A DNA stretch of 64,000 nt, taken from contig JAOABX010000003.1 in assembly GCA_026418175.1 (NCBI GenBank), positions 117,084 through 181,083 of the forward strand, read 5' to 3'. This stretch comes from Flavobacteriales bacterium (GTDB lineage Bacteria; Bacteroidota; Bacteroidia; CAIKAF01). Positions within the stretch are counted from its first letter, which is position 1. Every line of letters begins with the position of its first letter. The translations under genes were made by a program, and so were the position numbers. Shown here piece by piece: positions 3,017 to 39,794 of this stretch. Under the pieces are notes generated by a model. The model made no database searches, was not told the DNA's origin, and saw nothing but the letters and a program-made list of their open reading frames with translations.

Positions 3017-3044
3017 GCTACATATACCATAGATATTCGAAAAA

Positions 3045-3503: not shown

Positions 3504-4097
3504 ATGAATACACCAGGATTAGAACTTATTCTACAAAATATTTCTAGGTTTATTGAGTTGAACAGTGGTGAAATAGATTTTTTTGTTTCACTGTTAAAAC
3601 CTCATCATCTCCGCCGAAGACAATTTTTATTGCAAGAAGGAATGGTATGTAATTACACTGCTTTTGTGTACAATGGATGCCTGCGTTCGTATTCGGTAGA
3701 TTCGAATGGTTTTGAACATATATTACAGTTTGCTATTGAAGATTGGTGGATTGGTGATATGTACAGCTTAGTAACCCGACAGCCTGGCTTTTTAACCATT
3801 GATGCATTGGAAGAAAGCGATGTATTGTTGTTGCACCGAGATGACCAGTTAAGGTTATTTAATGAAGTTCCGAAATTTGAACGATTTTTCAGAATTTTAT
3901 TAGAGAAGTCTATGGTGATGCATCAATTACGGTTGATGGAAAATATCAGTATGCCAGCAGCTCAGCGATATCAGATTTTTGCTTCACGTTATCCTCAAAT
4001 CATAGCGAGGGTGCCGCAAACACAGATTGCTGCTTACTTAGGCATTACTCCCGAATTTTTAAGTAAAATCAAGAAAGATTTACTTCGTAAAAAATAA
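3504..4097 (+). CDS. Crp/Fnr family transcriptional regulator (cNMP-binding domain plus C-terminal HTH)
   Basis: 197 aa; N-terminal cyclic-nucleotide-binding-like beta roll and a C-terminal HTH (QTQIAAYLGITPEFLSKIKKDL). Typical size for the family. Confidence 0.7.
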   Translation: MNTPGLELILQNISRFIELNSGEIDFFVSLLKPHHLRRRQFLLQEGMVCNYTAFVYNGCLRSYSVDSNGFEHILQFAIEDWWIGDMYSLVTRQPGFLTIDALEESDVLLLHRDDQLRLFNEVPKFERFFRILLEKSMVMHQLRLMENISMPAAQRYQIFASRYPQIIARVPQTQIAAYLGITPEFLSKIKKDLLRKK

Positions 4098-4206
4098 ATT
4101 TGATTCTTCTCACTTAAACTAGATTAAGAGTATTTCTTAAACTTGTTTATTGGCCTTGACGCAGTAGCTGTCATAACTTTGGTTTTGAATTTAAAAACTA
4201 AATGAT

Positions 4207-4734
4207 ATGGCAACTTATGTAATAGACGCAGCACATTCTGAAATACAGTTCAAAGTAAAACATTTGATGATTTCTACTGTAACTGGAAATTTTACCCGGT
4301 TTGATGCAACCATGCAAGCGGAGGACGATGCATTTTTAAATGCATCTATATCTTTTGAAGCAGATGTTAATAGTATTCAAACCGGAAATGAACAACGAGA
4401 TGGACATTTAAAAAGTGCAGATTTTTTCGATGCAGAGAATCATCCTAAAATTTCATTTGCTTCTTCTTCCTTCGTTTCAAAAGGAGATAATCACTATTCC
4501 TTAGAAGGTACTTTAACAATTCGTGGAAATAGTAAGAAGGTGGTATTAGATGTTGAATACCTTGGAAAGATGGTTGACTTTTATGGTAATGAAAAGCATG
4601 GATTTGAGCTGAATGGAAAAATTAATCGGAAAGACTTTGGGTTAGAATGGAGTGCAGTAACCGAAGCCGGTGGTATAGTAGTATCTGATGAGGTACGATT
4701 GCACATGAACGTGCAGATGCAAAAAGTTAATTAA
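4207..4734 (+). CDS. YceI-like family (polyisoprenoid-binding) protein
   Basis: 175 aa; the start YVIDAAHSEIQFKVKHLMISTVTGNFTRFD and later RDGHLKSADFFD are YceI family hallmarks. It pairs with the upstream Crp-family regulator. Confidence 0.75.
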   Translation: MATYVIDAAHSEIQFKVKHLMISTVTGNFTRFDATMQAEDDAFLNASISFEADVNSIQTGNEQRDGHLKSADFFDAENHPKISFASSSFVSKGDNHYSLEGTLTIRGNSKKVVLDVEYLGKMVDFYGNEKHGFELNGKINRKDFGLEWSAVTEAGGIVVSDEVRLHMNVQMQKVN

Positions 4735-6571: not shown

Positions 6572-6602
6572 ATAAAATTAAGGAATAATTACAATATGCA
6601 GA

Positions 6603-7388
6603 TTATTGCAAAATGACTGTAATTTTTTGTGAAGTGCATGCATTAAAATATCCCAACACTCTGTGTCCTTCCAAATTGGTTACTGGATTTGAAGGGGTGG
6701 CGCTTTGAAGTAGCAAATTTCCAGCTGTCTGATTAAGACTAAAATAGTAGTCGTAAATTCTTTTTTCTATGCACTGCATTTCTATTTCAATGGTATCACC
6801 TGTATTTATACTTCCTCCGGCCAAAAATGACCGGGTGTTGGGCAGACCATTTATTCCCACATCGTTAAACACATAGAAGGCATTTCTTTTTTTACCTTTC
6901 TTATAAAGTATAAACCGATAAAAGTTTCCGGGGTCAGGGGGATCAGTAAAATGAGGAGTCATTATATATCGTGTGTTGCCGAACCAATTAATTAAATTAT
7001 AACTTATACTATCAAAAATTACTTTCTGAGGCATATAGCAACTAGCGGTGACAGTATCACTGGGAGTGAAGATGGAAAGATAATACGTGCTATTTTCTAT
7101 GCCTTGAATTATATTGGTTTGATATCTCCCTGAATCCAAATGGGTAAGTGTATCGGTATTACCGAAACTATCAGAGATTATCACTGTAGCATTATCCACG
7201 GTTGGAAAAATATTGTAATCGTCAAAATTTACACTTTGAGTTAATTTTACATGATAGGGTCCAGTTTGGTTAGTAATATTGGCTTCTACTACTAGGTAAG
7301 GGCTGGCTTCATTCAAATCTATTTCTATTACCTGCTGGCAGGAGATGAAATAAATTGAAACTAATGCTACAGGGAATAGATGTTTCAT
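6603..7388 (-). CDS. DUF4249-like lipoprotein (usual partner of CarboxypepD_reg-type TonB-dependent receptors)
   Basis: 261 aa; lipoprotein signal (VALVSIYFISCQQ). It is translationally coupled to the upstream TonB-dependent receptor (ATGA overlap at 7388). The family assignment is from memory of the typical gene pair. Confidence 0.5.
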   Translation of the reverse strand: MKHLFPVALVSIYFISCQQVIEIDLNEASPYLVVEANITNQTGPYHVKLTQSVNFDDYNIFPTVDNATVIISDSFGNTDTLTHLDSGRYQTNIIQGIENSTYYLSIFTPSDTVTASCYMPQKVIFDSISYNLINWFGNTRYIMTPHFTDPPDPGNFYRFILYKKGKKRNAFYVFNDVGINGLPNTRSFLAGGSINTGDTIEIEMQCIEKRIYDYYFSLNQTAGNLLLQSATPSNPVTNLEGHRVLGYFNACTSQKITVILQ

Positions 7389-9742
7389 TAAAATTTAAAA
7401 TTATATCCAACATAAGGTACAATACCAAATAGGGCTGTACTTACAGCTTCGGTTTTGCCCGGTTCGGTTTTGCTTTCTCTGAATGTAATGCGGTATGTGT
7501 TGTGTCTGTTGTACACATTGTAGGCGCCAAAAGTTAATTCAGACACAATCATTTTTCGTTTGGGCAATCCTTTTTTATTTACCCGTTTTTTGTTACTTCT
7601 TAAATCAATGGCTACCCCAAGGTCTAATCGGTGGTAGTCAGGCATGCGGTATCCGTTTCGTTCCGTAAATACATAAACTATTTTTCCATCAATTTCATAT
7701 TTGCCACTGGGAAATGTTACAGCATTTCCTGTATAATAAACAAATACACCTGTAAAAGTGAAACGTTTCCAATTGTAGGCTAATACAATGTTCACGTTGT
7801 GAGTTCTGTCTTGCCGGGCCGGATACCAGTTGAAATCATTAATGCCTTGGAAACGACGTTCAGTTCGTGAAAGCGTGTAAGCTATCCAACCGGTAAATTT
7901 TTCTTTATTTTTTCTAAAACAAAATTCCATTCCGTAAGCCCGGCCATTCCCAGTTAATAAATCGGCTTCATACAATTCATTATTCAGTACATCAGCTCCA
8001 TTTTTATAATCTAACTGGTTTTGCAGATGTTTGTAGTATCCTTCTAGGCTTATTTCAAACATTTGCTGATGTACCTGTTGAAATAAACCTAGCGACACTT
8101 GGTCCGAAATTTCGGGGCGTACCAGATTGCTGCTTGGAACCCACTTATCAGTAGGATTGCTAGCAAATGAATTGGCCAGCAAATGCAAAAATTGTGTATG
8201 ACGGGCATAGCCTATCTTAATTGATGTATATCGAAATGGGTGAAAATTAAAAAATAACCGAGGTTCTATGTTGACATAAGAAGCTGGAAACGAAAAGGAA
8301 TTGTAGTGCAGTGTATCTGAAATTTCTCCCGAGTTGTTTTTTACATAAAAGTCTCCAGGACCTGTGGCGTTAAAATTTACTAAACGCAGGCCGGAGTGTA
8401 TTTTCATCCAGTGAAGTGTAGCCCACTCATGATTAATATATAAAGCATTTTCCCAACTGTATCTTTTTGAAAGGTCTGTCATATTAAATCCGGTAGCCCC
8501 GGTGCCGTCAATTTCTCCAGGTGTAACAATATGAACTGTTGATATGATACCGGCTCGTAAGGTGTGTTTGTAAGAAGGGTAGATTTGAAAATCCTGTTTT
8601 AACTGAAAATCCATGATTTCTGAGCGAAGCTTTATCCCTACACTGTCTGTACTTACGGTTACTGTGCTACTATAATCGCTAAATACAAAGGAAGTATTTG
8701 AGAATACATTGGAACGAATGAGTTGTTGAAATCGAATCGTAGCTAAGGCATTATACCACCAAAGTTGAAAATCTGAAAGCATCAACTCATCTTGGCCGTA
8801 GTATCCGGAAACAAGCAGACGACTTTTCTTACCAAGGTTAAAATTCAATTTTGCATTTATGTCATAAAAGTAGAGGACCGTATTTTTAATTGATGTATTG
8901 CTTGAAATTCGGGTAAAAAGATCAGCATAGGTACGTCTTCCTGAAACCAGATAGGAGCTTTTCCCTTTTTCAATCGGTCCTTCTGCCATGAGCCGAGCAG
9001 CAATAAGGCTTACACCTCCACCCAAGTGAAATTGTTGATTATCGCCTTCGTTCATGCGTACATCAAGCACCGATGAAATTCTTCCCCCGTATTGAGACGG
9101 AGCATTCCCTTTGTATAAAGTAGCCTCTTTGACAGCATCAGAATTGAATGATGAAAAGAATCCTAGCAGATGCGATGGATTGTACACCGTTGCATCATCA
9201 AGAACAATTAGGTTTTGATCTGCCGCTCCTCCTCTTATATGATATCCGCTGCTTCCTTCATTGGCTGCTTGCACTCCGGGTAAGAGTTGCATGGATTTTA
9301 TAAAATCACGCTCTCCAACCAGTACCGGTAATTTATTCATTTGTTGCAAATCAATTTTTTCTACGCCAGACAGTGAAGAAAGAAATGTATAGGCTGATAT
9401 AGAATCGGTAATATGAATTTCAGAAAGGGCTTTGGATGATGGATGAAGCATAACATCCCACTGAAAATTTGTTTGCAGAAAGGTATCCAACTTGTTGGGG
9501 GTATATCCTAAATATTGTACCAGTAATTGAAGTTTGCCAGAAGGAAGAGTAATTGAATAGAATCCAAATTCATTAGTGATTACTCCTGATTGTTGATTGT
9601 TAATCGAAATAATATTTGCCCCAATTAATGGCTCACCAGTTTGAGCATCTTTTATAAATCCGCTAACGGTAACTTTCGATTGCGCATTTATCCCTTCAAT
9701 AATTCCAAGAAAAAAAATCAGGTATTTAAGGTAAAGGTTCAC
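7388..9742 (-). CDS. TonB-dependent outer membrane receptor (N-terminal carboxypeptidase-regulatory-like domain, plug, beta-barrel)
   Basis: 784 aa; signal peptide; CarboxypepD_reg-like start (KVTVSGFIKDAQTGEPLIGANI...FGFYSITLPSGK); plug-like region (LPGVQAANEGSSGYHIRGGAADQNLIVLDDATVYNP); C-terminal aromatic residue (..GYNFKF). Confidence 0.8.
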   Translation of the reverse strand: MNLYLKYLIFFLGIIEGINAQSKVTVSGFIKDAQTGEPLIGANIISINNQQSGVITNEFGFYSITLPSGKLQLLVQYLGYTPNKLDTFLQTNFQWDVMLHPSSKALSEIHITDSISAYTFLSSLSGVEKIDLQQMNKLPVLVGERDFIKSMQLLPGVQAANEGSSGYHIRGGAADQNLIVLDDATVYNPSHLLGFFSSFNSDAVKEATLYKGNAPSQYGGRISSVLDVRMNEGDNQQFHLGGGVSLIAARLMAEGPIEKGKSSYLVSGRRTYADLFTRISSNTSIKNTVLYFYDINAKLNFNLGKKSRLLVSGYYGQDELMLSDFQLWWYNALATIRFQQLIRSNVFSNTSFVFSDYSSTVTVSTDSVGIKLRSEIMDFQLKQDFQIYPSYKHTLRAGIISTVHIVTPGEIDGTGATGFNMTDLSKRYSWENALYINHEWATLHWMKIHSGLRLVNFNATGPGDFYVKNNSGEISDTLHYNSFSFPASYVNIEPRLFFNFHPFRYTSIKIGYARHTQFLHLLANSFASNPTDKWVPSSNLVRPEISDQVSLGLFQQVHQQMFEISLEGYYKHLQNQLDYKNGADVLNNELYEADLLTGNGRAYGMEFCFRKNKEKFTGWIAYTLSRTERRFQGINDFNWYPARQDRTHNVNIVLAYNWKRFTFTGVFVYYTGNAVTFPSGKYEIDGKIVYVFTERNGYRMPDYHRLDLGVAIDLRSNKKRVNKKGLPKRKMIVSELTFGAYNVYNRHNTYRITFRESKTEPGKTEAVSTALFGIVPYVGYNFKF

Positions 9743-18201: not shown

Positions 18202-18210
18202 TTACATTTG

Positions 18211-21200
18211 ATGTACGGGCATATTGCTGGTATGAAAAGATTTCTAATTTCATTTATAGTATTTGCTGTATTTACTGTTGCGGCAGTAATACTTTCAGGC
18301 ATAAGCAAAGGCCCTGGTTATTATAACCGAAAAACAAAAAAAATACAGAAAACGCTTTTTGAAAAAGAGGCGTATGCAAGCAGCTTGCTGCAGCAACTTG
18401 GTAAGGATTTTTACACTGACTCTTCGCGAAGCTTATTTTATTCCCGAAATCAAGGGCGTTACCGTACTATTAGCGAAAAAGGAATTAGTTTGTTTGCCTA
18501 TCATAAAGACTCTCTTATTTTTTGGACCACCAGCCATATCCCCGTTCCAGCCTATTCATTTGATGAAGATTTTTTATTTGATGTAGTTAAGCTAAAAAAT
18601 GGATGGTACCGATTGATTAAATATCGAAATCAAGATTTATTGCTTCTAGGCCTAATTCTGATTAAACATGATTATTTTATCAACAATGAGTTTTTAAAAG
18701 ACAAATTTCACCCTGATTTTGAAATTCATGAGGCCTGCGAATTAACTTTTGAAGAGGGAGATTCAAATTATGAAATTAAAGATACCGACGGCTCTTTTCT
18801 TTTTGGATTGTTATTTCGTAAGGAAAAACAAAACATGCTGCGATATCCTGTACTTTCAGGGATATTTTTTTTTATTGCAATTCTTTTGTTTTTTATTGTT
18901 GGATACTTTGCCCAGTTTATTCCATTTTTCTTATCCAGGCCTTGGCTACATTTTCTATTTTTAGTTCTTATTGTTGTATTTGTTAGGTATGTAAATGTAG
19001 TTTACAAATGGCCGAAGGTATTATACCAATTACCGCTATTTGACCCGATTCATTTTGCCAGTTCTTGGTGGCTCCCTTCGTTGGGAGATTTTATTTTACA
19101 TGCGATTGCTGTTAGCGTCCTATTGATTTTATTATTTAAATATCTTAAAAATGTACGATTGAAGCAAACTTCTCCTCATCAGGTTATTGGTTGGGTTTAT
19201 TTATTTTCTTTTATTTTATCTTTTTCCTCCTGGATTGTGTTTGAACTATTCAGAAGTTTGATATTTGACTCTAGTATTTCTTTTGACCTTTCCAATTTAC
19301 TTGTTCTTGATGTATATAGTTTTATAGGATTTGGCGTGATTACGCTCATGCTTTTAAACTATCTACTGGCTGTTTATTTTTTTACTCGTACCCTAGTTTT
19401 ACTTCGTAAATTATCGTTTTGGGAAATTGCACTTCACGCAGGAGTGGCATTTTCGCTGGGAGGGCTTATTCAGTCAGCATTTATGCATTATAACGTATTA
19501 GCTTTGTTTTTTCCATACCTCATTTTTATTTCGGTACTCGCAATTCACTCCAGTAAAAAGCCCGAAATTAGTTTTTATACTTTTTCGCCCACTATCCTGG
19601 TATTTACTGTGTATGCTACGTATTTGCTTTTTATGCTAAATAATGAAAAAGAACATGAGAAGCGGCAGGTTTTGGCCTTTAAAATTTCTGAAGAACAGGA
19701 TCATGTGGCGGAATTTCTTTTTATCGAAGCAGAAGATAAAATGAAGAAAGATGCGGAGTTGAAAAGAATGCTTTTTGAAAATGATGTATATTACCCCAAA
19801 GAATTTTTTGAACGTATTGCTCAAAATTATTTTAGCGGATATTGGTCAAAATATATTCTCCATATTACGCCGTTTAATATGAACGATTATCGGCTCTTGG
19901 CTGATTCACTTCGTGCTGATCCACAATTACGGTATTATGAAAATGCAATTACTTTGTTTGGAAAACCTACGGCTAGTCCATCCCTATATTTTATTGATAA
20001 TAATGTTGGAAAGATTAATTACCTCGCTAAAATTGAATTTGTAAAGCAATTGCCGCTTGGATTTGAGAAAAAAGTAATCTTTATAGAATTTATTTCAAAA
20101 ATTGTTACACAAGTTACCGGTTTCCCGGAACTACTCTTGGATGAATCTATTACAAGGCCCGTTGAAATCGGGTCTTATTCTTATGCCATTTATAAAGCAT
20201 CTGAATTAAACGTATCAGGCGGAGAATTTGCTTATCCACTAAATATGGATGAGTTTAATAAAGTTTCTGATGAAATAGGATATATACGTAGCCGTGGATT
20301 TGAACATCTAGTATATCGCACACCGGGTGGGAAAGTGGTTGTAATCAGTAAACCTCAGTTGCGTTGGCAGGATTTTCTCAGTCCGTTTGCCTATTTATTA
20401 ATTTATTTTTCGTGTATTTTATTACTTTATCTTATTTATAGGTATTACTTCCTAAGTGATAATCGCGTTCTGCAGTTAAATTTTAAAACTCGTATTCAGT
20501 TTTCTATCTTATCAATTCTGCTTATTTCACTGGTTGTTGTGGGGCTTGGTATTAATAACTATGTCATTACACAGTTTAATCGAAAAAATAAACTTGCGAT
20601 TAATGAAAAACTTAATTCAATATTAACTGAGCTTCGAGTTCGTATTGAGGAGCAGGAAGAAGAAGTGCTTGATGAAAATTATATTAACTACTTGCTTCGA
20701 GGTTTTTCAAATGTATTTTTTACAGACATAAATCTTTATAGCCCCAATGGTACCTTGCTCGCCACATCACGTGAATCTGTTTATAACGAAGGATTATTAT
20801 CGCGGCAAATGGATCCGGAAGCTTTTTATGAAATGACCATTCGGAAGCAACCCCGATATATTCATCAGGAAAAAATCGGAGAATTTAGTTATTTAAGTGC
20901 TTACGCTGCTTTTCGTAATGGCAGCAATGAGATTATTGGCTATCTGAATTTGCCGTATTTTCTTCGACAAAAAGAATTGGGTGAAGAATTAGCCTCTTCG
21001 TTGTTGGCACTTATTAATATATACAGTTTATTGATTGCTGTTTCAATGCTAGTTACATTTGTTATTGCCAATCGCCTTACTGAGCCACTTACCATTCTTC
21101 AGGAAAAAATAGGAAAAATAAAATTGGGAAGAAAAAATGAAATGATTGACTATACTGCCAATGATGAGATTGGCAGTTTGGTAAATGAATACAATCGTAT

Positions 21201-21918
21201 GATCAAAGAACTGGAAGCCAGTGCTGAACTTTTGGCTCGTTCAGAACGTGAAACAGCCTGGCGTGAAATGGCTAAACAGGTGGCGCATGAAGTAAAAAAT
21301 CCGCTAACTCCTATGAAGTTGAGCGTGCAATACCTGGTAAAAGCGTGGGATGATAAACGTCCTGATTTTGATGAACGCCTCCGAAAATTTAAAGATGCCA
21401 TGATCGAACAAATAGAAACACTTTCGGCCATAGCAAGTGAATTCTCCTATTTTGCAAAAATGCCTACGGCCATTAAAACAGAAGTAGATTTGGTAGAAAT
21501 GCTTACCAACTGCCTGGAGTTTTTTAGAAACAATGAACACAATGTATCAATACGCTTAGATTTGGGATCTATAAAAAAAGCGTTGATTTTAGCAGACAGG
21601 GATCAGATGCTACGAGTGTTTAATAACCTAATACGAAATGCCATTCAAGCCATACCAGAAGGCCGGCAGGGAGAAATTATCATCCGTTTATTGAAGGAAG
21701 GGGATTATTATATTGCTATAGTAAAAGATAACGGGGTAGGAATACCAGAAGAATTAAGGGATAAAATTTTTGCTCCCAATTTTACCACAAAGAGTTCAGG
21801 CATGGGACTTGGATTGGCTATGACAAGAACCATAATTGAAAACATGGAAGGAGAAATAAGTTTTGAAACCGAACTTGGTAAAGGAACGGAATTTAAGGTA
21901 AAACTTAAAGCAATATAA
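18211..21918 (+). CDS. Giant multi-pass membrane sensor histidine kinase (N-terminal ~7-TM region, second TM-flanked periplasmic sensor domain, HAMP, HisKA, HATPase_c)
   Basis: HisKA H-box HEVKNPLTPM; N-box LIRNAIQA; G-boxes DNGVGIP and GMGLGLAM; a HAMP-like linker after the TM at ~aa 935-955; at least 10 hydrophobic TM segments in the first 760 aa. No response regulator is encoded nearby. Confidence 0.8.
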   Translation: MYGHIAGMKRFLISFIVFAVFTVAAVILSGISKGPGYYNRKTKKIQKTLFEKEAYASSLLQQLGKDFYTDSSRSLFYSRNQGRYRTISEKGISLFAYHKDSLIFWTTSHIPVPAYSFDEDFLFDVVKLKNGWYRLIKYRNQDLLLLGLILIKHDYFINNEFLKDKFHPDFEIHEACELTFEEGDSNYEIKDTDGSFLFGLLFRKEKQNMLRYPVLSGIFFFIAILLFFIVGYFAQFIPFFLSRPWLHFLFLVLIVVFVRYVNVVYKWPKVLYQLPLFDPIHFASSWWLPSLGDFILHAIAVSVLLILLFKYLKNVRLKQTSPHQVIGWVYLFSFILSFSSWIVFELFRSLIFDSSISFDLSNLLVLDVYSFIGFGVITLMLLNYLLAVYFFTRTLVLLRKLSFWEIALHAGVAFSLGGLIQSAFMHYNVLALFFPYLIFISVLAIHSSKKPEISFYTFSPTILVFTVYATYLLFMLNNEKEHEKRQVLAFKISEEQDHVAEFLFIEAEDKMKKDAELKRMLFENDVYYPKEFFERIAQNYFSGYWSKYILHITPFNMNDYRLLADSLRADPQLRYYENAITLFGKPTASPSLYFIDNNVGKINYLAKIEFVKQLPLGFEKKVIFIEFISKIVTQVTGFPELLLDESITRPVEIGSYSYAIYKASELNVSGGEFAYPLNMDEFNKVSDEIGYIRSRGFEHLVYRTPGGKVVVISKPQLRWQDFLSPFAYLLIYFSCILLLYLIYRYYFLSDNRVLQLNFKTRIQFSILSILLISLVVVGLGINNYVITQFNRKNKLAINEKLNSILTELRVRIEEQEEEVLDENYINYLLRGFSNVFFTDINLYSPNGTLLATSRESVYNEGLLSRQMDPEAFYEMTIRKQPRYIHQEKIGEFSYLSAYAAFRNGSNEIIGYLNLPYFLRQKELGEELASSLLALINIYSLLIAVSMLVTFVIANRLTEPLTILQEKIGKIKLGRKNEMIDYTANDEIGSLVNEYNRMIKELEASAELLARSERETAWREMAKQVAHEVKNPLTPMKLSVQYLVKAWDDKRPDFDERLRKFKDAMIEQIETLSAIASEFSYFAKMPTAIKTEVDLVEMLTNCLEFFRNNEHNVSIRLDLGSIKKALILADRDQMLRVFNNLIRNAIQAIPEGRQGEIIIRLLKEGDYYIAIVKDNGVGIPEELRDKIFAPNFTTKSSGMGLGLAMTRTIIENMEGEISFETELGKGTEFKVKLKAI

Positions 21919-27339: not shown

Positions 27340-30312
27340 ATGAAAACATTTACAAAAAAGTTATCAGTTTTATCCATCGGATTGATAGCTGGAGCAGCTA
27401 CAGCCCAAATAAGTTTTACAGATGGAAATAGTTTATTACATTCTGAAACTGGCGTACTAGGTAGTAATGCAAATATTTTCAGCGGTAATGCAGTATGCGT
27501 AGTAGACGTTAATTTTGATGGGTATGATGATATTGTCAAGTTAGATAATGGGCGATATGTACGAATTGAATATCAACAATCAGGAGGAACATTCACCCAC
27601 CAATATATTGGCGATTTTGGAACTATGACCAGCTGTTGGGGAATGAGTGCCGCCGATGTTGATAAAAATGGTTATGCTGATATACTTTTTAATGGTGGTT
27701 CTCAGGCTCGTTTAATGAAACTCAACAATACGGGTACAGGGATATTGGGTTCTATTATTAATCTGCCTAATGGTAATATTTTTAGTCAAAATGGAAATTT
27801 TTGCGATGCAAACAATGATGGTTGGTTAGATATTTTTATGTGTAATGACGTAGATGAAAGTAGATTGTGGTTAAATGATGGAACTGGTAATTTCCCGACA
27901 GAAAATAATAATACATATATAAATTTTGATTTAACTCCAGGTACGGGTCCTGGCCCTGCTCTTTCCGGGGGGCCACCAAATCATCAATATGATGAATCAG
28001 GAAATTATAGTAGTATATGGACTGATATAGATGATGATGGAGATGTAGATTTGTACATAGTTCATTGTAGGCAAGGAGCTAACCCAGGAGATTTACGTCG
28101 TACCAATGTATTGTTTAGAAACAATGGCAATGGTACATATACTGGAATTAACCAATCCGCACAAATAGGAATTTTAGCCAGCAATGATCAGGATTGGACA
28201 GCCAGCTTTGGTGATATTGATAATGATGGAGATTTTGATGTATTTATGACAAAACATGATAAGGCTCAAGAGTGGTACACTAATAATGGTAATGGTACTT
28301 TTAGTGCCACTGCTTCTGGGTCTTTTACTTATCCTAATAATACGGCTATTCAATCATTGTACGAAGATTTTGATAATGATGGATTTGTGGATTTATTATT
28401 TACCGGAATGGGTGTTCAACAAAGGCTTTATCGTAATAACGGGAATGGTACCTTTACACAAGTTCCTAATGCTACCCTTGGTTTTGGAAGTAATAATTTT
28501 GCATCATTTGCTACAGGTGACTTAAATCATGATGGAAAAATAGATATTTATGCTAGCTATCATACCAGCTATAATACACCTAGTTCAAGCATTGTAGACC
28601 GGCTTTGGTTAAATTCAACATCTAATAGTAATAACTTTTTAACATTAAATTTAAAAGGAACTACCAGTAACAAAGAAGGAATAGGTGCACGTGCATATAT
28701 TTATGGAGCCTGGGGAGTACAGACCCGTGAAGTTCGATCCAGTGAAAGTTATGGTACGCTTAATAGTTACAGCTTGCATTTTGGTTTAGGTACTGCTACT
28801 CAAGTTGATTCAATTGTTGTTCGCTGGCCCTCTGGCCAAAAATCGAAAATTGTTTGTCCTGTTTCAGCCAATCAATTTGTAAACATTGTAGAAGGTACGC
28901 CTACTTGCTTTTTAGCATGTTCTTCAATTAATATTACCCCCAGTGGTTCAACAACTATTTGTCCGGGAGATGTTCTTACGTTGAGCGCTCCGACAGGTGC
29001 TTATACATATCTTTGGTCTAATGGTGCTACCACACAATCGATCGATGTAAATACTGCAGGTACTTACAATGTAATTGTATCATCAGGTGCAGGATGCTCT
29101 GCTACAGCACCAAGCATTGTTGTTACGATGAATCCCCCAGAAAACCCGGTTATTACTGCGCAGGGTGATTTGGAGTTCTGCCCGGGTGGAAGTGTAGTGC
29201 TTGAAGCTGCTGGAGGTTCTCCGGTTTGGAATACGGGTGAAACTACATCTACAATTACAGCAACACAAGATGGAGAATACTATTTCTATATTCAAGGCCT
29301 TTGCCAGCCATGGTACTCAGATACGCTCGTTGTAACATTGTTTGATAATACCCCCCCGTCTGCTTCTGGAACTACTATAACCTCTCCGCAGTCTGTTACA
29401 TTAAATGCTACAGGTACCAATGTGAGCTGGTGGGATGCACCTTCAGGGGGTAATCTCTTGGGAACTGGAAACACGTTTGTTACTCCTGTATTGAGCAGTA
29501 CAACAACTTATTATGTTCAAGATGATCATCAATACAATGGGTCAATAGGTAACGTAGGCTCAACAGATATTGCATCGGCCGGGTATTCAACAGGAACAAT
29601 TAACGGATATTTAATTTTTGATGTCCTAACCAATTGCCGGTTGAACTCTGTTGAGGTATCTACCGATTCTGTTGGTACCAGAGTAATTGAATTACGCGAT
29701 GCCTCAGGAGCTGTTTTACAAGCTCTTTCTGTAAATATTCCTGCTGGAACATCTACCGTTGATTTGGGCTTTGATTTAACCCCCGGTACTTATCAGCTAG
29801 GTACCAATACCGCACAAAACAATTCTGAATTTGGTGCAAATTCTCCATTTTTGAAGAGAAACCAAAGTGGAGCTTCTTATCCGTACGTACTTACTGATGT
29901 GCTTTCTATAACAGGTGGACATACAGGTACTGCCCCAACTTCTGCTGCGTACTATTATTTCTATAATTGGGAAGTGGAAGTATTACCCATTGTTTGTCCT
30001 AGTGATCGCACTCCAGTTACTGTAACATATGTTAATACTTCAGGAATAGATAATGAAGAAGCCTCTCAATTCTTAATATATCCTAACCCTGCTACTAACT
30101 GGGTGAATGTTGAGTTTAATGTTTCGGAAACCGCACCTGCTCAACTTGAAGTAACTGATATGACCGGTCGTAAAGTGGTGTTAATAGATTTAGGAACAGT
30201 ACATGGTAAAGTAACTCGTATATTGCAAACGGATGGATTTGCTCAAGGTGTTTACAATGTAACACTTACCGTAGGTGAAAAAACGTATCATACGCTGGTT
30301 GTAATTAAATAA
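27340..30312 (+). CDS. FG-GAP/VCBS seven-bladed propeller plus ASPIC/UnbV domain protein (CRTAC1-like) with Ig-like repeats and a T9SS C-terminal sorting domain
   Basis: Seven D-x-D/N-x-D-G-x-x-D Ca-binding blade motifs (DVNFDGYDDIV, DVDKNGYADIL, DANNDGWLDIF, DIDDDGDVDLY, DIDNDGDFDVF, DFDNDGFVDLL, DLNHDGKIDIY). UnbV_ASPIC signature KEGIGARAYIYG...LHFGLGTATQVDSIVVRWPSGQ. CTD IYPNPATNWVNVEF...GVYNVTL. Confidence 0.75.
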   Translation: MKTFTKKLSVLSIGLIAGAATAQISFTDGNSLLHSETGVLGSNANIFSGNAVCVVDVNFDGYDDIVKLDNGRYVRIEYQQSGGTFTHQYIGDFGTMTSCWGMSAADVDKNGYADILFNGGSQARLMKLNNTGTGILGSIINLPNGNIFSQNGNFCDANNDGWLDIFMCNDVDESRLWLNDGTGNFPTENNNTYINFDLTPGTGPGPALSGGPPNHQYDESGNYSSIWTDIDDDGDVDLYIVHCRQGANPGDLRRTNVLFRNNGNGTYTGINQSAQIGILASNDQDWTASFGDIDNDGDFDVFMTKHDKAQEWYTNNGNGTFSATASGSFTYPNNTAIQSLYEDFDNDGFVDLLFTGMGVQQRLYRNNGNGTFTQVPNATLGFGSNNFASFATGDLNHDGKIDIYASYHTSYNTPSSSIVDRLWLNSTSNSNNFLTLNLKGTTSNKEGIGARAYIYGAWGVQTREVRSSESYGTLNSYSLHFGLGTATQVDSIVVRWPSGQKSKIVCPVSANQFVNIVEGTPTCFLACSSINITPSGSTTICPGDVLTLSAPTGAYTYLWSNGATTQSIDVNTAGTYNVIVSSGAGCSATAPSIVVTMNPPENPVITAQGDLEFCPGGSVVLEAAGGSPVWNTGETTSTITATQDGEYYFYIQGLCQPWYSDTLVVTLFDNTPPSASGTTITSPQSVTLNATGTNVSWWDAPSGGNLLGTGNTFVTPVLSSTTTYYVQDDHQYNGSIGNVGSTDIASAGYSTGTINGYLIFDVLTNCRLNSVEVSTDSVGTRVIELRDASGAVLQALSVNIPAGTSTVDLGFDLTPGTYQLGTNTAQNNSEFGANSPFLKRNQSGASYPYVLTDVLSITGGHTGTAPTSAAYYYFYNWEVEVLPIVCPSDRTPVTVTYVNTSGIDNEEASQFLIYPNPATNWVNVEFNVSETAPAQLEVTDMTGRKVVLIDLGTVHGKVTRILQTDGFAQGVYNVTLTVGEKTYHTLVVIK

Positions 30313-32697: not shown

Positions 32698-34197
32698 CTA
32701 TCTTTTAATCAATGATTGTTGATGTATTTTTTCGCTACTGATTAGTTGCATGAGATAAATGCCCGGAGCAAGGTCATCAATCATGATAATTGAATTTGTA
32801 TTATTACTACTTAAGTTGGTTGATTTAATCAATTTTCCATCCATTGAATAAAAGTTTAATTTTTCAAATGAATGATTTGATATGGATGGTACAATCACAT
32901 AATTATCAGCCGGATTTGGATAAATCATCAAAGTAGTTTCTAACTCATCATTTATACCTACAAATGGATTTATTATTACCGTACGACAAGTACTTGCTTC
33001 ACACCCTCCGATACCTGTTACAGTTAAACAAACCGTAAATGTATCAACCGAAGTATAGACATGAGTAGGATTTTGAAGCGTTGAAGTATTTCCATCTCCG
33101 AAATCCCATGACCAGGAAGTGCCACCTGTTGAGTTATCTATGAATTGTACATTAAAGCCAGAAACGTTGCTATTAAAGTTAGCACTTGGATATGCTCCAA
33201 TGATCAAATTGCTTCCATTATCAGTTCCATTCATCGAAGGATTGGAGGAAACTACCCGGATGCGATACCCTGTTCCGGCAGCAGTGCTTCCAGGTATTGT
33301 TGCATTTATTGATCCTGATGTGGTGGATGTGATACTGCCGATTGGAGTTGGAGAAGCAAAAGATCCCAAGGCATCAGAAAGTTGAGCTGTAAAAACATTA
33401 CCTGAATTAAATGTTCCTGATGCTGAATAATTAACTACAACTGCATCATTGGGACATAGTGTATCTTCAGAAACAGAGGTAGTTGTAATAGTATTTGTTA
33501 CAGCAGCAGTTCCTGAAATTACAATTTCATCTACTGAAAGGGGGGGGTCTGATGCGCTGAACGAAGAATTATTTACAAAACGAAATCCAAAGCGCAAGGT
33601 AGCTTGATTGTTCCAAATAGCATTCGTTTGAGTTAAAGTTTGCCAAGAGGAAACATTGTAAATATTTCCTAATTGTAATTGCCAGGTAGCTCCCCCATTG
33701 GTACTATAATATAATTCACCATAGGTGGCAGAAGAGCCTGCGCATAAATAATAACAGGAAAAAGTAACGTTGGTATATCCAAGCGTTGAAATATCGTTGC
33801 TCATCTTAGCAAAATAATTTTGATTACCATTACATAAAAACCCACCATCCGACGCTAAAAAGTTAGCATTACTGATACCCGCAGCTTGTGCTGCTTGATT
33901 TACGATATGTAAATAATTACTATTCGGTGAGCCAGTTATTGCTCCCGGTTGACTGGGAGTATTTCCAACGGAAGTAGAAAAACCAAAGCAAGGTTCATTA
34001 AATGATCCACCGTTATAGCTGTTATTAACTACCCAAAGATTATACCCGTTAGTAACTGAACTTACATCTGATGAATTAAGGGTAAATGTGTGAGTAGCAC
34101 CATTAAAATTTTCAGAATACAAGGTAGTTTGCGAATATATTTTTATTAATGGAAATCCTAAAGCAAATAATAATAGTAGAAGTTTTCTCATAATCAT
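32698..34197 (-). CDS. Secreted T9SS cargo protein: N-terminal ~240-aa domain, one copy of the GNVFTAQLSD module, a PKD-like domain (WSWDFGDGNTS) and a T9SS CTD
   Basis: Signal peptide; aa 266-333 GNVFTAQLSDALGSFASPTPIGSITSTTSGSINATIPGSTAAGTGYRIRVVSSNPSMNGTDNGSNL; PKD signature WSWDFGDGNT; CTD IYPNPADNYVIVPS...GIYLMQL. Confidence 0.7.
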   Translation of the reverse strand: MIMRKLLLLLFALGFPLIKIYSQTTLYSENFNGATHTFTLNSSDVSSVTNGYNLWVVNNSYNGGSFNEPCFGFSTSVGNTPSQPGAITGSPNSNYLHIVNQAAQAAGISNANFLASDGGFLCNGNQNYFAKMSNDISTLGYTNVTFSCYYLCAGSSATYGELYYSTNGGATWQLQLGNIYNVSSWQTLTQTNAIWNNQATLRFGFRFVNNSSFSASDPPLSVDEIVISGTAAVTNTITTTSVSEDTLCPNDAVVVNYSASGTFNSGNVFTAQLSDALGSFASPTPIGSITSTTSGSINATIPGSTAAGTGYRIRVVSSNPSMNGTDNGSNLIIGAYPSANFNSNVSGFNVQFIDNSTGGTSWSWDFGDGNTSTLQNPTHVYTSVDTFTVCLTVTGIGGCEASTCRTVIINPFVGINDELETTLMIYPNPADNYVIVPSISNHSFEKLNFYSMDGKLIKSTNLSSNNTNSIIMIDDLAPGIYLMQLISSEKIHQQSLIKR

Positions 34198-36723: not shown

Positions 36724-39700
36724 ATGAAGAAACTTTACTTGTGCTTAATTACATGTATGCCCATGATTATATATGGGCAAAACCAACAAATCAATAACAG
36801 CAATTTTGAGCTTTGGCAAAATTTAGGACAAAATACTGAAAAGCCCAATGACTGGAATTCGTTTATGAATGCTTCAGGGTCTTTTGCTGGTTTTGCTGCA
36901 CAGCAAATTAGACGATCAACTGTAACTAGACCAGGTTCAACTGGTCAATATAGCGCTGTTATTTGGTCAAGAAATGCTTTAGGAACGAATGCCAATGGGA
37001 ACATGACTACAGGAAGGATAAATATGGGAAGCACTACTCCCTCTAGTTCAAGCAACTATAATTATACGCAGCGCTCAAATTCAACATTTTATGAAACGAT
37101 GACGGATTTGCCTGATTCTATTATTTGCTGGGTGAAATTTAAACCAGTAAATGTATCAGGTACAGATTCAGCTCGCATGCGGGCTGTTGTGCACGGTGAT
37201 TATGATTTTCGTGATCCCAGCGATGCTGGCTCTCAGGCTCAGATTGTACGTCATGCTACGCGAAATTTTCGTGGCCCCCACAATCAATGGCAGCGCTTGA
37301 GTGTTCCATTTATTGCATCAGGACCTGCTACAACTCCTTATTACATCCTGGTAACGTTTACTACCAATAAAACACCCGGTGGAGGAAGTTACAATGACTC
37401 TTTATGGATTGATGATGTATCGCTGGTATATAATCCAACCTTGGCAACCGGTGTAATAAATCCTACTACTTATTATGTAACTCCTACTGCAGGAACTGCC
37501 ATCTCTGTTCCATTTACAGCAACCGGAACATATAATCCGGGAAATGTATTTACTGCTCAACTTTCTGATGCTTCTGGTTCATTTGCCAATCCCATTGTAC
37601 TTGGAACTTTAACCGGTACTACTTCTGGTACAATCAATGGAATAATACCTGCTGGCACACCTACTGGCACAGGATACAGGGTAAGGGTGGTTTCTTCTAA
37701 CTATCCAGTAACAGGTTCAAACAATGGAACAAACTTAACGATCAATTTAGTAACAACTTCAATAGCTCCTGCTAGTGCTCAAACTATTGAAGCGGGAGTA
37801 AACGGGACAGCTTTAACTGTTGCTGAGTCTGTTATACCTTCTTCTCGTGAATGGAAATACAGTACGATCAGCGGTGGGCCTTATACATCATTTGTTCCGG
37901 CTCAAACAGGCTCGTCCTATGTACCAAATTTTTCGACAGCAGGAGCCTATTATGTGGTTTGTGAATCTTCATACCCTGGTCTTACTGCTATTTCTAATGA
38001 AGTACTCATCAATGTGGTTGATAATACCATAACTCCGGCTTCCCCTCAAAGCATATTGATTGGTGTTAACGGAACTACGCTAACTGTATCTGAAACACCC
38101 GCTGGAACAAGTCGTGAATGGAAGTATTCTACTACTTCCGGAGGGCCTTATAATTCCTTTGTTCCTGCACAAACTGGAACTACTTATACTCCGAATTTTT
38201 CTTCTGCGGGTACCTACTATGTTGTTTGTCAAAGTGTAATTAATGGAATTACAGTTACTAGTAATGAGGTAGTTATCTCAGTAAATAATTTAACCCTTTC
38301 AACGGGCACAATCTCAGGTTCGCCGTTTGAGTTTAGTGCTTCGGCTCCTAATGCATCTGTATCTGTTCCTTATACTGTAGGCGGTACAGGAAGTTTTAAT
38401 GTAGGCAATGTGTTTACAGCTCAACTTTCAGATGCATTCGGATCATTTGCTTCTCCAGTGAATATAGGTAGCATAACTTCAACAAACAGCGGAGTAATTT
38501 CTGCAACAATTCCGTCTTCCACACCTGCAGGCACTGGATATAGAATTAGGGTAGTAGCTAGTTCGCCTGCTATTTTGGGTTCAGATAACGGATCTAATCT
38601 TGTAGTTGACCAGTTTAATAATTCCATAACACCACCTGGACCTCAAACTTTTGTGTTTTCCGGTTCGGGAACAACTCTTACAGTCAATGAATCACAAAAC
38701 ACTATTGCCAGAGAATGGAGATATGCCTCAACTCCTGGTGGTCCTTATTCATCCTTTGTTCCTGCACAAACAGGAGTACAATACACTCCTTCGTTTCCCT
38801 CTGTTGGAACATATTATGTGGTTTGTGCATCTACCAACCAATACAATGATGAAGTAATTAGCAATGAAGTGATTTGTAATGTTACTAATAGCATTACACT
38901 TACAACTACCACTGTAACAGGTGCCCCTTTTTATGTTTCACCCAGTGCGAATGTTACCGGTACGGTTTCATTTACTACTGATGTGATATATGGAACAGGG
39001 AATGTGTTTACAGCAGAATTATCTGACCTAAATGGTAGTTTTGCAACACCTGTATCAATAGGGTCATTATCCGGAACAGCATCAGGCACAATCAATATTA
39101 CAATACCTAATAACACCCCATCAGGGAATGCATATCGGATTCGGGTTGTGTCATCCAATCCACCACTTACCGGTACTCCCAATACTTCCAATTTATCTGT
39201 TGTTAATTTTGAAGTAAATGCATCACCAACCGATACTCAAAATATTGTGGTGAATACTCCCGGTACTATGATTACTGCTACTTCTTCTCATCCTGGAGTG
39301 TCATATGAGTGGAAATATAAGACCTTCCCCACAAATCCATGGAGTTCATTTTCTCCATCAGAAACCTCTAGTTCTTATACTCCCTTATTTACTAATACCG
39401 GAGGTTTTTATGTTGCTTGTATGGTAGTAAATACATGGAATGATACCTTATATACAGATCAAACAGTAATTCTTGTTTCCAACAGTCCCGGATCAGTTGA
39501 AGAACATGGGCTAAGTCAGGTATTTGGATATTTTCAGCAAGATCAGCTTGTAATAAATCTTTCTTCCTTGGCATTACAGCCTCTACAGATTACATTGTTC
39601 AATATGGCAGGTCAACAACTGGCCATGCATCAAACTTTGGGTGGTACAATTTTTAATTTTCCTGTTATGTTGCCAGCCGGTATTTATCACCTGCGCATAG

Positions 39701-39744
39701 ATGCAACCGAAGGTATCAGAAATCTCAAGATAATTAAACAATAA
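36724..39744 (+). CDS. Large secreted modular repeat protein (T9SS cargo): N-terminal domain, then alternating A (GNVFTAQLSD, ~68 aa) and B (REWKYST, ~85 aa) modules, then a T9SS CTD
   Basis: Signal peptide; three A modules (aa ~273, 560, 760) and four B modules (aa ~347, 436, 635, 833); CTD LFNMAGQQLAMHQ...GIYHLRIDA. 1006 aa. Confidence 0.75.
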   Translation: MKKLYLCLITCMPMIIYGQNQQINNSNFELWQNLGQNTEKPNDWNSFMNASGSFAGFAAQQIRRSTVTRPGSTGQYSAVIWSRNALGTNANGNMTTGRINMGSTTPSSSSNYNYTQRSNSTFYETMTDLPDSIICWVKFKPVNVSGTDSARMRAVVHGDYDFRDPSDAGSQAQIVRHATRNFRGPHNQWQRLSVPFIASGPATTPYYILVTFTTNKTPGGGSYNDSLWIDDVSLVYNPTLATGVINPTTYYVTPTAGTAISVPFTATGTYNPGNVFTAQLSDASGSFANPIVLGTLTGTTSGTINGIIPAGTPTGTGYRVRVVSSNYPVTGSNNGTNLTINLVTTSIAPASAQTIEAGVNGTALTVAESVIPSSREWKYSTISGGPYTSFVPAQTGSSYVPNFSTAGAYYVVCESSYPGLTAISNEVLINVVDNTITPASPQSILIGVNGTTLTVSETPAGTSREWKYSTTSGGPYNSFVPAQTGTTYTPNFSSAGTYYVVCQSVINGITVTSNEVVISVNNLTLSTGTISGSPFEFSASAPNASVSVPYTVGGTGSFNVGNVFTAQLSDAFGSFASPVNIGSITSTNSGVISATIPSSTPAGTGYRIRVVASSPAILGSDNGSNLVVDQFNNSITPPGPQTFVFSGSGTTLTVNESQNTIAREWRYASTPGGPYSSFVPAQTGVQYTPSFPSVGTYYVVCASTNQYNDEVISNEVICNVTNSITLTTTTVTGAPFYVSPSANVTGTVSFTTDVIYGTGNVFTAELSDLNGSFATPVSIGSLSGTASGTINITIPNNTPSGNAYRIRVVSSNPPLTGTPNTSNLSVVNFEVNASPTDTQNIVVNTPGTMITATSSHPGVSYEWKYKTFPTNPWSSFSPSETSSSYTPLFTNTGGFYVACMVVNTWNDTLYTDQTVILVSNSPGSVEEHGLSQVFGYFQQDQLVINLSSLALQPLQITLFNMAGQQLAMHQTLGGTIFNFPVMLPAGIYHLRIDATEGIRNLKIIKQ
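37540..39480 (+). repeat. Intragenic tandem modular repeats (order A-B-B ... A-B ... A-B) inside 36724..39744
   Basis: Approximate repeat-unit DNA spans: A 37540-37745, B 37762-38028, B 38029-38290, A 38404-38610, B 38627-38880, A 38995-39200, B 39220-39480. The amino-acid copies are ~50-75% identical. Confidence 0.6.
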
Positions 39745-39768
39745 TTTATTTCGGTTAAATAAAAAAAA

Positions 39769-39794
39769 GCCCCGATTAATCGGGGCTTTTTTTT
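39769..39794. terminator. Bidirectional rho-independent terminator between 36724..39744 (+) and pgk (-)
   Basis: gccccg-attaat-cggggc hairpin flanked by AAAAAAAA upstream and TTTTTTTT downstream. Confidence 0.7.

What the first reader, a model, noticed from the sequence alone, without database searches (positions are those of the whole stretch)
36724..39744. Mosaic surface protein built of alternating ~68-aa and ~85-aa modules, with intragenic DNA repeats
The 1006-aa T9SS cargo contains three copies of module A (GNVFTAQLSD...GYRIRVVSS...NGSNL) and four copies of module B (P.S.Q.I..GVNGT.LTV.E....REWKYST.SGGPY.SFVPAQTG..Y.PNFS..G.YYVVC). Amino-acid identity of 50-75% between copies means extended nucleotide-level repeats. 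Such architecture is typical of adhesins subject to recombinational expansion or contraction (length and antigenic variation). Neither module has a characterised function that I can name.
Basis: seen in the sequence. Interest (0 to 1): 0.5.

Follow-up and report, generated by a model that had tools for sequence, protein, structure and literature searches.

The report
Fixed seven-module secreted surface protein
This gene encodes an ordinary secreted Bacteroidota surface protein whose seven internal repeat domains are ancient, strongly conserved and fixed in number, so it is not a recombining, length-variable adhesin.

Summary
The 1006-aa ORF (36724-39744, +) is real. It holds three copies of module A and four of module B (pairwise BLASTP E 1e-11 to 1e-40). 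The details need correcting. A is a ~107-aa Ig-like domain, not 68 aa. B is a ~90-aa Fn3/Ig_7-like domain. The order is A-B-B-A-B-A-B, after a PCMD-like N-terminal domain and before a type A T9SS sorting domain.

The inferred "extended nucleotide repeats" are not there. Copies share 46-61% nucleotide identity, the longest exact match is 20 nt, and Tandem Repeats Finder finds no array.

The same module order occurs in 107 of the 120 best homologues (46-81% identity; Flavobacteriales, Chitinophagales, Saprospiraceae, Sphingobacteriales MAGs). Every A and 426/428 B modules are closest to the same-position module of another protein. The closest relative (81%) is collinear, with dN/dS about 0.03-0.12. 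The duplications are therefore old and under purifying selection.

A relative (P0002) does carry a 270-nt tandem array at 90% identity, so the tools would have detected one here.

Best reading: a fixed-length stalk of seven β-sandwich domains carrying a putative glycan-binding head. This function is inferred, not shown. Low interest; new member of a known kind.

The parts
36724..36777 (+). Sec signal peptide (aa 1-18, MKKLYLCLITCMPMIIYG|Q). Cleavage would expose Gln19.
   Evidence: Read directly from the sequence. The AF2 model has a helix at 2-14, then low confidence at 12-18. Q19 is invariant or nearly invariant in the homologue alignments. This fits the Bacteroidetes Q-rule for signal peptidase I substrates (PMC5837995). 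No signal-peptide predictor was available.
36778..37431 (+). N-terminal beta-sandwich 'head' domain (aa 19-236), PCMD-like (Pfam PF13201, putative carbohydrate metabolism domain).
   Evidence: The window copy has no Pfam hit even at E<=10. However, 17 of 47 full-length homologues match PF13201, best E 5.7e-15; P0075 matches at residues 38-226 with 42.7 bits against a cut-off of 28. A profile of this domain hits the Bacteroides structures 3hbz, 4het and 4jrl ('putative glycoside hydrolase') at E 2.5e-4 to 0.012. AF2 pLDDT is about 85-95 and all-beta.
37432..37752 (+). Module A1 (aa 237-343), Ig-like beta-sandwich.
   Evidence: Family HMM E 5e-45. 51-55% identical to A2 and A3, BLASTP E 3e-33 and 5e-31.
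37753..38019 (+). Module B1 (aa 344-432), Fn3/Ig_7-like beta-sandwich.
   Evidence: Family HMM E 1e-36. 64% identical to B2.
38020..38289 (+). Module B2 (aa 433-522), Fn3/Ig_7-like.
   Evidence: Family HMM E 7e-41. Matches PDB 3mpc 'Fn3-like protein' at E 1e-4. Pfam Ig_7 PF19081 scores 20.4 bits, below the 27.3 cut-off.
38290..38616 (+). Module A2 (aa 523-631), Ig-like beta-sandwich; the best-conserved module in the family.
38617..38883 (+). Module B3 (aa 632-720), Fn3/Ig_7-like.
   Evidence: Family HMM E 2e-36.
38884..39210 (+). Module A3 (aa 721-829), Ig-like beta-sandwich.
   Evidence: Family HMM E 2e-43. Sub-threshold Pfam matches: GEVED 19.2 bits and Kre9_KNH 16.5 bits. The same-position module of homologue P0095 matches Kre9_KNH at 38.4 bits, above the 24.6 cut-off.
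39211..39489 (+). Module B4 (aa 830-922), the most diverged B copy.
   Evidence: Family HMM E 1e-31. 33-36% identical to the other B copies. Mean identity among homologues is 0.38.
39490..39744 (+). Short low-confidence linker (aa 922-930), T9SS type A C-terminal sorting domain, and the stop codon.
   Evidence: TIGR04183 E 9.7e-6, 25.5 bits against a cut-off of 23, at residues 943-1006. Pfam Por_Secre_tail is sub-threshold in the window copy, but 31 of 47 homologues match it. AF2 shows seven strands at 934-1005, preceded by a segment with pLDDT <50 at 922-930.
39761..39794 (.). Likely bidirectional intrinsic terminator (A8-GCCCCGA-TTAA-TCGGGGC-T8) between this gene and the convergent pgk gene.
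   Evidence: Read directly from the sequence (72 output). pgk was identified by Pfam PGK at E 5e-151.

Best explanation
The gene encodes a secreted multi-domain protein of fixed architecture.

Shown:
- The domain order is signal peptide, PCMD-like beta-sandwich head, seven beta-sandwich modules in the order A-B-B-A-B-A-B, a short flexible linker, then a type A T9SS C-terminal sorting domain.
- A is an Ig-like domain distantly related to Pfam Kre9_KNH. B is Fn3-like and distantly related to Pfam Ig_7.
- The seven modules arose by duplications that predate the divergence of the whole family.
- Since then they have been kept at fixed number, order and length under purifying selection.
- The DNA copies are too diverged to act as recombination substrates.

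Inferred from what is known of T9SS cargo:
- The protein is exported by Sec and its signal peptide is cut before Gln19.
- It then crosses the outer membrane through the T9SS, and PorU removes the C-terminal domain.
- It is either released or linked to anionic LPS on the cell surface.
- If anchored, the seven modules would form a stalk. At a typical Ig-domain length of ~3.5-4 nm each, that is roughly 25-30 nm (my own estimate; nothing was measured here). The stalk would hold the N-terminal head away from the cell.

Inferred only from the PCMD family's name and its context in Bacteroides:
- The head binds a carbohydrate.
For: Architecture:
- define the modules.
- The AF2 full-length model has mean pLDDT 90.3, is all-beta, and falls below pLDDT 50 only in the signal peptide and at 922-930.

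Secretion:
- TIGR04183 scores above its cut-off.
- Q19 is conserved, with the Q-rule described in PMC5837995.
- PorU cleavage and attachment to anionic LPS are described in PMC11285876.

Head domain:
- PF13201 matches 17/47 homologues.
- A profile of the domain hits 3hbz, 4het and 4jrl.

Module B is Fn3/Ig_7-like:
- 3mpc at E 6e-5 and the 5g56 Fn3 domain at E 0.01.
- B modules of relatives P0119 and P0028 pass the Ig_7 cut-off.

Module A is Ig-like:
- AF2 pLDDT 96.
- A3 of P0095 passes the Kre9_KNH cut-off.

Ancient and stable arrangement:
- nt identity is 46-61%, and only 36-56% of identical-residue columns use the same codon.
- TRF finds no array.
- 107/120 homologues have the same module order.
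- Modules are positionally orthologous: 321/321 A and 426/428 B.
- Within-protein identity between positions is only 1-2 points above between-protein identity.
- Module lengths are constant within about 4 aa.
- The closest relative is collinear, with dN/dS 0.03-0.12.
- There are no homopolymer tracts of A/T >= 7 or G/C >= 6 from 36501 to the end of the gene.
- No convincing invertible-promoter repeats flank the start.

Positive control:
- The same tools find a 270-nt array of 8.4 copies at 90% identity in relative P0002 on L085.
Against: - Function is not demonstrated for any domain. The window's own N-terminal domain and its A and B modules all fall below the curated Pfam cut-offs, so family assignment rests on transitive homology.
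- The stalk-as-spacer idea fits poorly with one result. Modules A1-A3 and B1-B3 are more conserved (0.55-0.66) than the head (0.45). In addition, the Ser, Tyr and second Arg of the LSD...YRIRV motif are invariant in all 321 A copies. Both suggest the modules do more than provide length.
- Whether the protein stays anchored or is released cannot be told from sequence.
- pTM 0.48 means the relative orientation of the domains is not predicted.
- No T9SS machinery gene was looked for in the window.
- No close strains (>95% identity) were available, so very recent copy-number polymorphism within a population was not tested directly.
Confidence: 0.7

Rival explanations
1. One reading: a variable adhesin whose intragenic DNA repeats recombine. 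This would expand or contract the number of modules and give length and antigenic variation.
For: - The protein is repetitive and secreted.
- Four weak but significant self-diagonals exist in the DNA.
- Some relatives show recent intragenic amplification. P0002 has B copies 97-99% identical and a 270-nt tandem array. P0119 has A copies 85-88% identical.
- A few relatives have other module counts, such as N-A-B-A-B-A-B and N-A-B-B-B-B-A-B-A-B-A-B.
Against: - In this gene the copies share 46-61% nt identity and the longest exact match is 20 nt. To my knowledge that is below the roughly 25-30 nt of perfect identity that efficient RecA-dependent recombination needs.
- TRF finds no array.
- The module order is identical in 107/120 homologues, and positional orthology is strict.
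- The closest relative is collinear, with dN/dS 0.03-0.12.
- The repeat modules are the most conserved part of the protein, not the most variable.
Confidence: 0.03
2. The A and/or B modules are themselves the working parts. Seven CBM-like beta-sandwiches would bind a polymer (polysaccharide or another cell's surface) multivalently along the rod. The PCMD head would be one more binding unit rather than the sole functional tip.
For: - The modules are more conserved than the head (0.55-0.66 vs 0.45).
- Ser, Tyr and Arg are invariant in all 321 A copies.
- B resembles the Fn3 modules of clostridial glycoside hydrolases (3mpc, 5g56).
- Module A is reused in about 7400 representative proteins, up to 12 copies each, behind many different heads.
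Against: - The conserved residues could be purely structural.
- Reuse behind many different heads fits a generic scaffold equally well.
Confidence: 0.2
3. A released extracellular enzyme. The PCMD-like domain would be a glycoside hydrolase, as the PDB depositors' names suggest. The modules would tether it to substrate, and the CTD would serve only for export.
For: - The PDB relatives 3hbz, 4het and 4jrl are named 'putative glycoside hydrolase'.
- Fn3-like modules are common in secreted glycoside hydrolases.
Against: - Those names are structural-genomics guesses with no activity shown.
- No match was found to any glycoside hydrolase family in Pfam or NCBIfam.
- The genomic neighbours are housekeeping genes (helicase, pgk, holB-like, PSP1) rather than a polysaccharide utilisation locus, and the context is not conserved in relatives.
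Confidence: 0.07

Closest known systems
T9SS type A CTD cargo proteins of Bacteroidota with Ig-like repeat stalks (for example the large repetitive gliding adhesins SprB and RemA of Flavobacterium johnsoniae; recalled from my own knowledge, not tested here)
   Same: It has an N-terminal Sec signal, a string of beta-sandwich repeats, and a C-terminal T9SS sorting domain.
   Different: No SprB-repeat match was found at E<=1 for the whole protein or E<=10 for single modules. It is much shorter than those adhesins as I recall them. The CTD matches type A (TIGR04183) above its cut-off, while the only other T9SS C-terminal model that appeared (NF033708, T9SS_Cterm_ChiA, type C) scored 13.3 against a cut-off of 40. 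The head is PCMD-like. No link to motility is known.
PCMD domain proteins of Bacteroides (Pfam PF13201; PDB 3hbz, 4het, 4jrl)
   Same: The N-terminal domain is homologous at profile level, and 17/47 full-length homologues pass as PF13201.
   Different: In the solved Bacteroides chains (342-360 aa) the match covers the C-terminal part of the chain. Here the domain is at the N-terminus of a T9SS cargo protein, followed by seven modules. The window copy itself is below Pfam detection. The function of PCMD is unknown in both settings.
Pfam Ig_7 (PF19081, Ig-like domain CHU_C associated) and bacterial Fn3-like modules of clostridial glycoside hydrolases (PDB 3mpc, 5g56)
   Same: Module B aligns with 3mpc across the Fn3 motifs (W in strand B, GGPY, YT, YYVV). 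B modules of relatives P0119 and P0028 pass the Ig_7 cut-off.
   Different: The window's own B modules are below the cut-off (best 20.4 vs 27.3 bits). They match no Pfam fn3 model.
Pfam Kre9_KNH (PF10342, Kre9/KNH-like N-terminal Ig-like domain)
   Same: Module A3 of homologue P0095 matches at 38.4 bits, above the 24.6 cut-off, and 9/47 homologues match at E<=0.01.
Variable-number tandem-repeat surface adhesins
   Same: It is a repetitive secreted or surface protein built of beta-sandwich modules.
   Different: That class is defined by near-identical DNA repeats and by copy-number differences between strains. Neither is present here.

Membership tests
T9SS type A cargo | C-terminal ~70-85-aa sorting domain matching TIGR04183 or PF18962 | tested here: met
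   TIGR04183 scores 25.5 bits against a cut-off of 23, E 9.7e-6, at residues 943-1006. Pfam PF18962 is sub-threshold in the window copy (16.9 bits), but 31/47 homologues match it.
T9SS type A cargo | N-terminal Sec signal peptide | tested here: met
   Sequence reading shows a charged N-terminus (MKK), a hydrophobic core and G|Q19. Q19 is conserved. No dedicated predictor was available.
T9SS type A cargo | Seven-stranded beta-sandwich fold of the CTD, preceded by a flexible linker | tested here: met
   AF2 predicts strands at 934-1005 with pLDDT 82-92 and a linker at 922-930 with pLDDT <50.
T9SS type A cargo | T9SS machinery encoded in the same genome, and actual secretion | not tested
   Only a 64-kb window was available and its genes were not screened for T9SS components. 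Two further CTD-bearing genes lie within 12 kb, which fits an organism that has a T9SS.
PCMD domain (PF13201) | Match to the Pfam model above its gathering score | tested here: inconclusive
   The window copy has no hit even at E<=10. Seventeen of 47 full-length homologues match, best E 5.7e-15. A profile of the domain hits 3hbz, 4het and 4jrl at E 2.5e-4 to 0.012. Membership holds only by transitive homology.
Ig_7 (PF19081) / bacterial Fn3-like | Match of module B above the gathering score, or significant similarity to a solved Fn3-like domain | tested here: inconclusive
   B2 scores 20.4 bits against a cut-off of 27.3. B modules of P0119 (47.5 bits) and P0028 (50.4 bits) pass. PDB 3mpc matches at E 6.4e-5 with the B profile.
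Kre9_KNH (PF10342) | Match of module A above the gathering score | tested here: inconclusive
   A3 scores 16.5 bits against a cut-off of 24.6. The same-position module of P0095 scores 38.4 bits.
GEVED domain (PF20009) | Match above the gathering score | tested here: not met
   A3 scores 19.2 bits against a cut-off of 24.4, and A1 and A2 have no hit. In L069 and L064 a true GEVED domain (residues 287-367 and 300-380) lies upstream of, and separate from, module A (532-634 and 385-487).
SprB repeat / PKD | Any match of the modules to these Pfam models | tested here: not met
   No hit at E<=1 for the whole protein or E<=10 for single modules. A PKD domain is present only in the neighbouring gene 32698-34197.
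Recombination-prone variable-number repeat adhesin | Near-identical tandem DNA repeats long enough for homologous recombination | tested here: not met
   nt identity is 46-61% and the longest exact match is 20 nt. There is no TRF array. The positive control L085 gives 8.4 copies at 90% identity.
Recombination-prone variable-number repeat adhesin | Copy number differs between close relatives | tested here: not met
   The 81%-identical relative has 1005 aa with one 1-aa gap. 107/120 homologues have the same module order. One homologue, P0010, is identical in sequence on 13 contigs, of which the three places shown come from three different sequencing runs. No strain-level (>95% identity) relatives were available.
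Recombination-prone variable-number repeat adhesin | Concerted evolution: copies within a protein are more alike than same-position copies in different proteins | tested here: not met
   The nearest neighbour is the same position in another protein for 321/321 A and 426/428 B modules.

The most novel reading that the evidence does not exclude
The A-B-B-A-B-A-B rod may not be a passive spacer. It could be a conserved functional device. One form would be a multivalent binding surface, using the invariant Ser/Tyr/Arg positions of module A. Another would be a fixed-length 'ruler' that packs laterally into a surface layer. Either would define an uncharacterised, widespread family of Bacteroidota surface proteins. 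It would also make module A (about 7400 representative proteins, no adequate Pfam model) a new functional domain family.
Probability: 0.2. Interest if true: 0.4.

Novelty: new member of a known kind. Interest (0 to 1): 0.2.

Why it matters
As it stands, the result mainly corrects an over-interpretation. Repeated protein modules do not imply recombining DNA repeats, and this gene is a stable, conserved T9SS cargo protein rather than a variable adhesin.

There is modest wider value:
- The family is common in environmental Bacteroidota: more than 100 full-length homologues, sometimes as three tandem paralogues.
- Nobody has characterised it in the literature that could be searched.
- Its two building blocks are poorly covered by domain databases, although module A occurs in thousands of proteins.
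- The rod being more conserved than the head is an unexplained detail that a structural or glycan-binding study could resolve.

Tried and rejected
- Self-BLASTP of the whole protein returned only the identity hit. It was replaced by motif anchoring and module-by-module BLASTP.
- Foldseek of the full-length model against the PDB returned only generic multi-Ig chains such as complement, Robo and mastigoneme, with TM <= 0.2. This was uninformative.
- The afdb50 fold library was not available.
- A profile search with module A in the 5.8-billion-protein set returned almost only short fragments and gave little domain context. It was replaced by ORFs from genome loci plus Pfam and by the representative-library search.
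- A profile of module A against PDB sequences found nothing credible (best E 0.07, a PDZ domain).
- Literature searches for PCMD, PF13201, PF19081, PF10342 and Kre9_KNH found no study of this family.
- Phase variation by simple-sequence repeats or an invertible promoter was considered and rejected. There are no homopolymer tracts and only short imperfect inverted repeats around the start.
- Disulfide-linked modules were considered and rejected. The single Cys of each B module is replaced by Ala in 9-40 of the 107 homologues, so it is most likely a buried core residue.
- The Pfam Novirhabdo_Nv and TNF matches in homologues were treated as spurious short or low-complexity hits.
Full report
**Observation**

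The ORF at 36724-39744 (+) is present and encodes 1006 aa.

Alignment, and later the structure model, place the true module boundaries as follows:

| Module | Residues |
|---|---|
| A1 | 237-343 |
| B1 | 344-432 |
| B2 | 433-522 |
| A2 | 523-631 |
| B3 | 632-720 |
| A3 | 721-829 |
| B4 | 830-922 |

- A is therefore a ~107-aa domain. B is ~90 aa, and the order is A-B-B-A-B-A-B.
- The similarity is far above chance: A-A BLASTP E 2e-27 to 3e-33 and B-B E 6e-11 to 5e-40.
- A and B are unrelated to each other (hhalign probability 0.3%).
- Identities are 50-53% over whole A (60-62% in the core) and 33-64% for B.

**DNA level**

The DNA does not show them.
- Codon-aligned nucleotide identity between copies is 46-61%.
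- Only 36-56% of columns with the same amino acid use the same codon.
- The longest exact match between any two copies is 20 nt.
- Self-blastn, the equivalent of the proposed dot-plot, gives four weak diagonals of 65-121 nt at 72-77% identity.
- Tandem Repeats Finder sees no array in the gene.
- There are no homopolymer tracts and no convincing invertible-promoter repeats.

**Comparison with relatives**

The identical protein is in NCBI as "T9SS type A sorting domain-containing protein", from a Flavobacteriales MAG (P0001).
- Of the 120 best homologues, 107 have the same core order A-B-B-A-B-A-B and are about 1000 aa long. They share only 46-81% identity with the window protein.
- They come from Flavobacteriales, Chitinophagales, Saprospiraceae and Sphingobacteriales MAGs.
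- In these 107 proteins, every A module (321/321) and nearly every B module (426/428) has its nearest neighbour at the same position in a different protein. Within-protein identity between positions is only 1-2 points above between-protein identity.
- The duplications therefore predate the family, and there has been no concerted evolution.
- Module lengths vary by no more than about 4 residues.
- The closest relative (P0003, 81% aa, same helicase gene upstream) is collinear with one 1-aa gap. Its dN/dS is 0.03-0.12 in every module, although dS is near saturation.
- Some genomes hold three tandem paralogues of the same architecture, 52-59% identical to each other. Diversification is therefore by whole-gene duplication, not by change in module number.

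**Positive control**

- P0002 (1595 aa) has B copies 97-99% identical.
- On L085 it has a 270-nt tandem array of 8.4 copies at 90% identity and a second array of 3.8 copies at 83%.
- The tools would therefore have detected such an array in the window gene.

**What the parts are**

AF2 with the 107-sequence alignment gives mean pLDDT 90.3. The model is all-beta, and confidence is low only in the signal peptide and at residues 922-930.
- **C-terminus.** It matches TIGR04183 above its cut-off.
- **N-terminal domain.** The window copy is undetectable by Pfam. However, 17/47 homologues match PCMD (PF13201), best E 5.7e-15. A profile of the domain also hits the Bacteroides structures 3hbz, 4het and 4jrl.
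- **Module B.** It aligns with the Fn3-like protein 3mpc (E 6e-5) and with the Fn3 module of 5g56. B modules of relatives pass the Pfam Ig_7 cut-off, while the window's own B2 reaches only 20.4 of 27.3 bits.
GEVED is sub-threshold, and in other proteins it is a separate neighbouring domain. SprB and PKD do not match.
- **Spread of module A.** Its profile matches 7404 representative proteins at E <= 1e-3, with up to 12 copies per protein. It sits in proteins with heads such as PA14, GEVED, Gly_rich_2, F5/8 type C and RCC1 propellers, all with T9SS tails.

**Mechanism**

Shown: the architecture, its age and its stability.

Inferred from established T9SS biology (PMC11285876; Q-rule, PMC5837995):
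- Sec export with cleavage before the conserved Gln19.
- T9SS transit.
- Removal of the CTD by PorU.
- Either release or attachment to anionic LPS.

Under this model the seven beta-sandwiches form an elongated stalk with the PCMD-like head at the distal end. A carbohydrate ligand is only suggested by the family's name and by the glycoside-hydrolase-associated relatives of B.

One observation does not fit a pure spacer. The modules are more conserved (0.55-0.66) than the head (0.45), B4 (0.38) and the CTD (0.31). Ser, Tyr and the second Arg of LSD...YRIRV are invariant in all 321 A copies. The modules may therefore bind something themselves or pack in a defined way. This is the main rival and the basis of the "novel case".

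**Context**

- The neighbours are housekeeping genes: an SF1 helicase, pgk (convergent, sharing a likely bidirectional terminator at 39761-39794), a DNA polymerase III delta'-like gene, and a PSP1 gene.
- Context is not conserved beyond the closest relative.
- Two more T9SS cargo genes lie within 12 kb. One of them (32698-34197, -) carries a fourth A module, closest to A2 at 60%.

**Verdict**

The descriptive part is right. The recombination and variation part is refuted for this gene. This is a new member of a known kind, a T9SS cargo protein with Ig-like repeats, from an uncharacterised but widespread family. Interest is low.

Noticed in passing
window 32698-34197 (-); A module at 33196-33456: The neighbouring 499-aa gene is another T9SS cargo. 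It has an unassigned N-terminal domain, one copy of module A (60% identical to A2), a PKD domain and a Por_Secre_tail.
   Followed up: partly
window 27340-30312 (+): A third T9SS cargo gene lies within 12 kb. It is 990 aa, with FG-GAP/ASPIC-UnbV repeats, a bona fide Ig_7 domain (45 bits) and a Por_Secre_tail. The module B HMM gives only faint hits there.
   Followed up: partly
L085 2319-4594 and 5236-6260 (relative P0002, GCA_016722375.1): This relative has a true tandem DNA array of module B (period 270 nt; 8.4 copies at 90% and 3.8 copies at 83%). One repeat spacing is 269 nt, at about the point where the locus is split into two called genes (1238-3028 and 3001-7788). That suggests a frameshift or an assembly error inside the array.
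   Followed up: partly
L086 5217-8234, 8366-11356, 11540-14587: A bioreactor metagenome contig carries three tandem paralogues of the same ~1000-aa architecture, 53-58% identical to each other.
   Followed up: partly
window 37432-39210 (modules A1-A3, B1-B3) versus 36778-37431 (head): The internal repeat modules are more conserved across homologues than the N-terminal head or the CTD. Three residues of module A are invariant in all 321 copies examined. This is unexpected for a spacer and remains unexplained.
   Followed up: partly
window 39761-39794: A GC-rich hairpin flanked by A8 and T8 lies between the gene and the convergent pgk gene. It looks like a bidirectional intrinsic terminator.
   Followed up: no
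window 18208-21918 (+): A 1236-aa histidine kinase has HAMP/HisKA/HATPase domains only in the last ~290 residues. Its first ~950 residues have no Pfam match at E<=1e-4.
   Followed up: no
L005, L053, L065 and protein P0165: Homologues or module A fragments sit in records labelled Competibacteraceae, Woesearchaeota, Chromatiales and Salmonella enterica (the last on a 241-nt contig). These are probably mis-binned or contaminant Bacteroidota DNA rather than real occurrences outside the phylum.
   Followed up: no
L051 (Chryseolinea lacunae), L056 (Hymenobacter citatus): Cultured Bacteroidota carry giant T9SS proteins with other arrangements of module A. Chryseolinea has nine consecutive A copies. 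In Hymenobacter, A copies are separated by 75-100-residue gaps, two of which match Pfam Ig_2 or Ig_3.
   Followed up: partly
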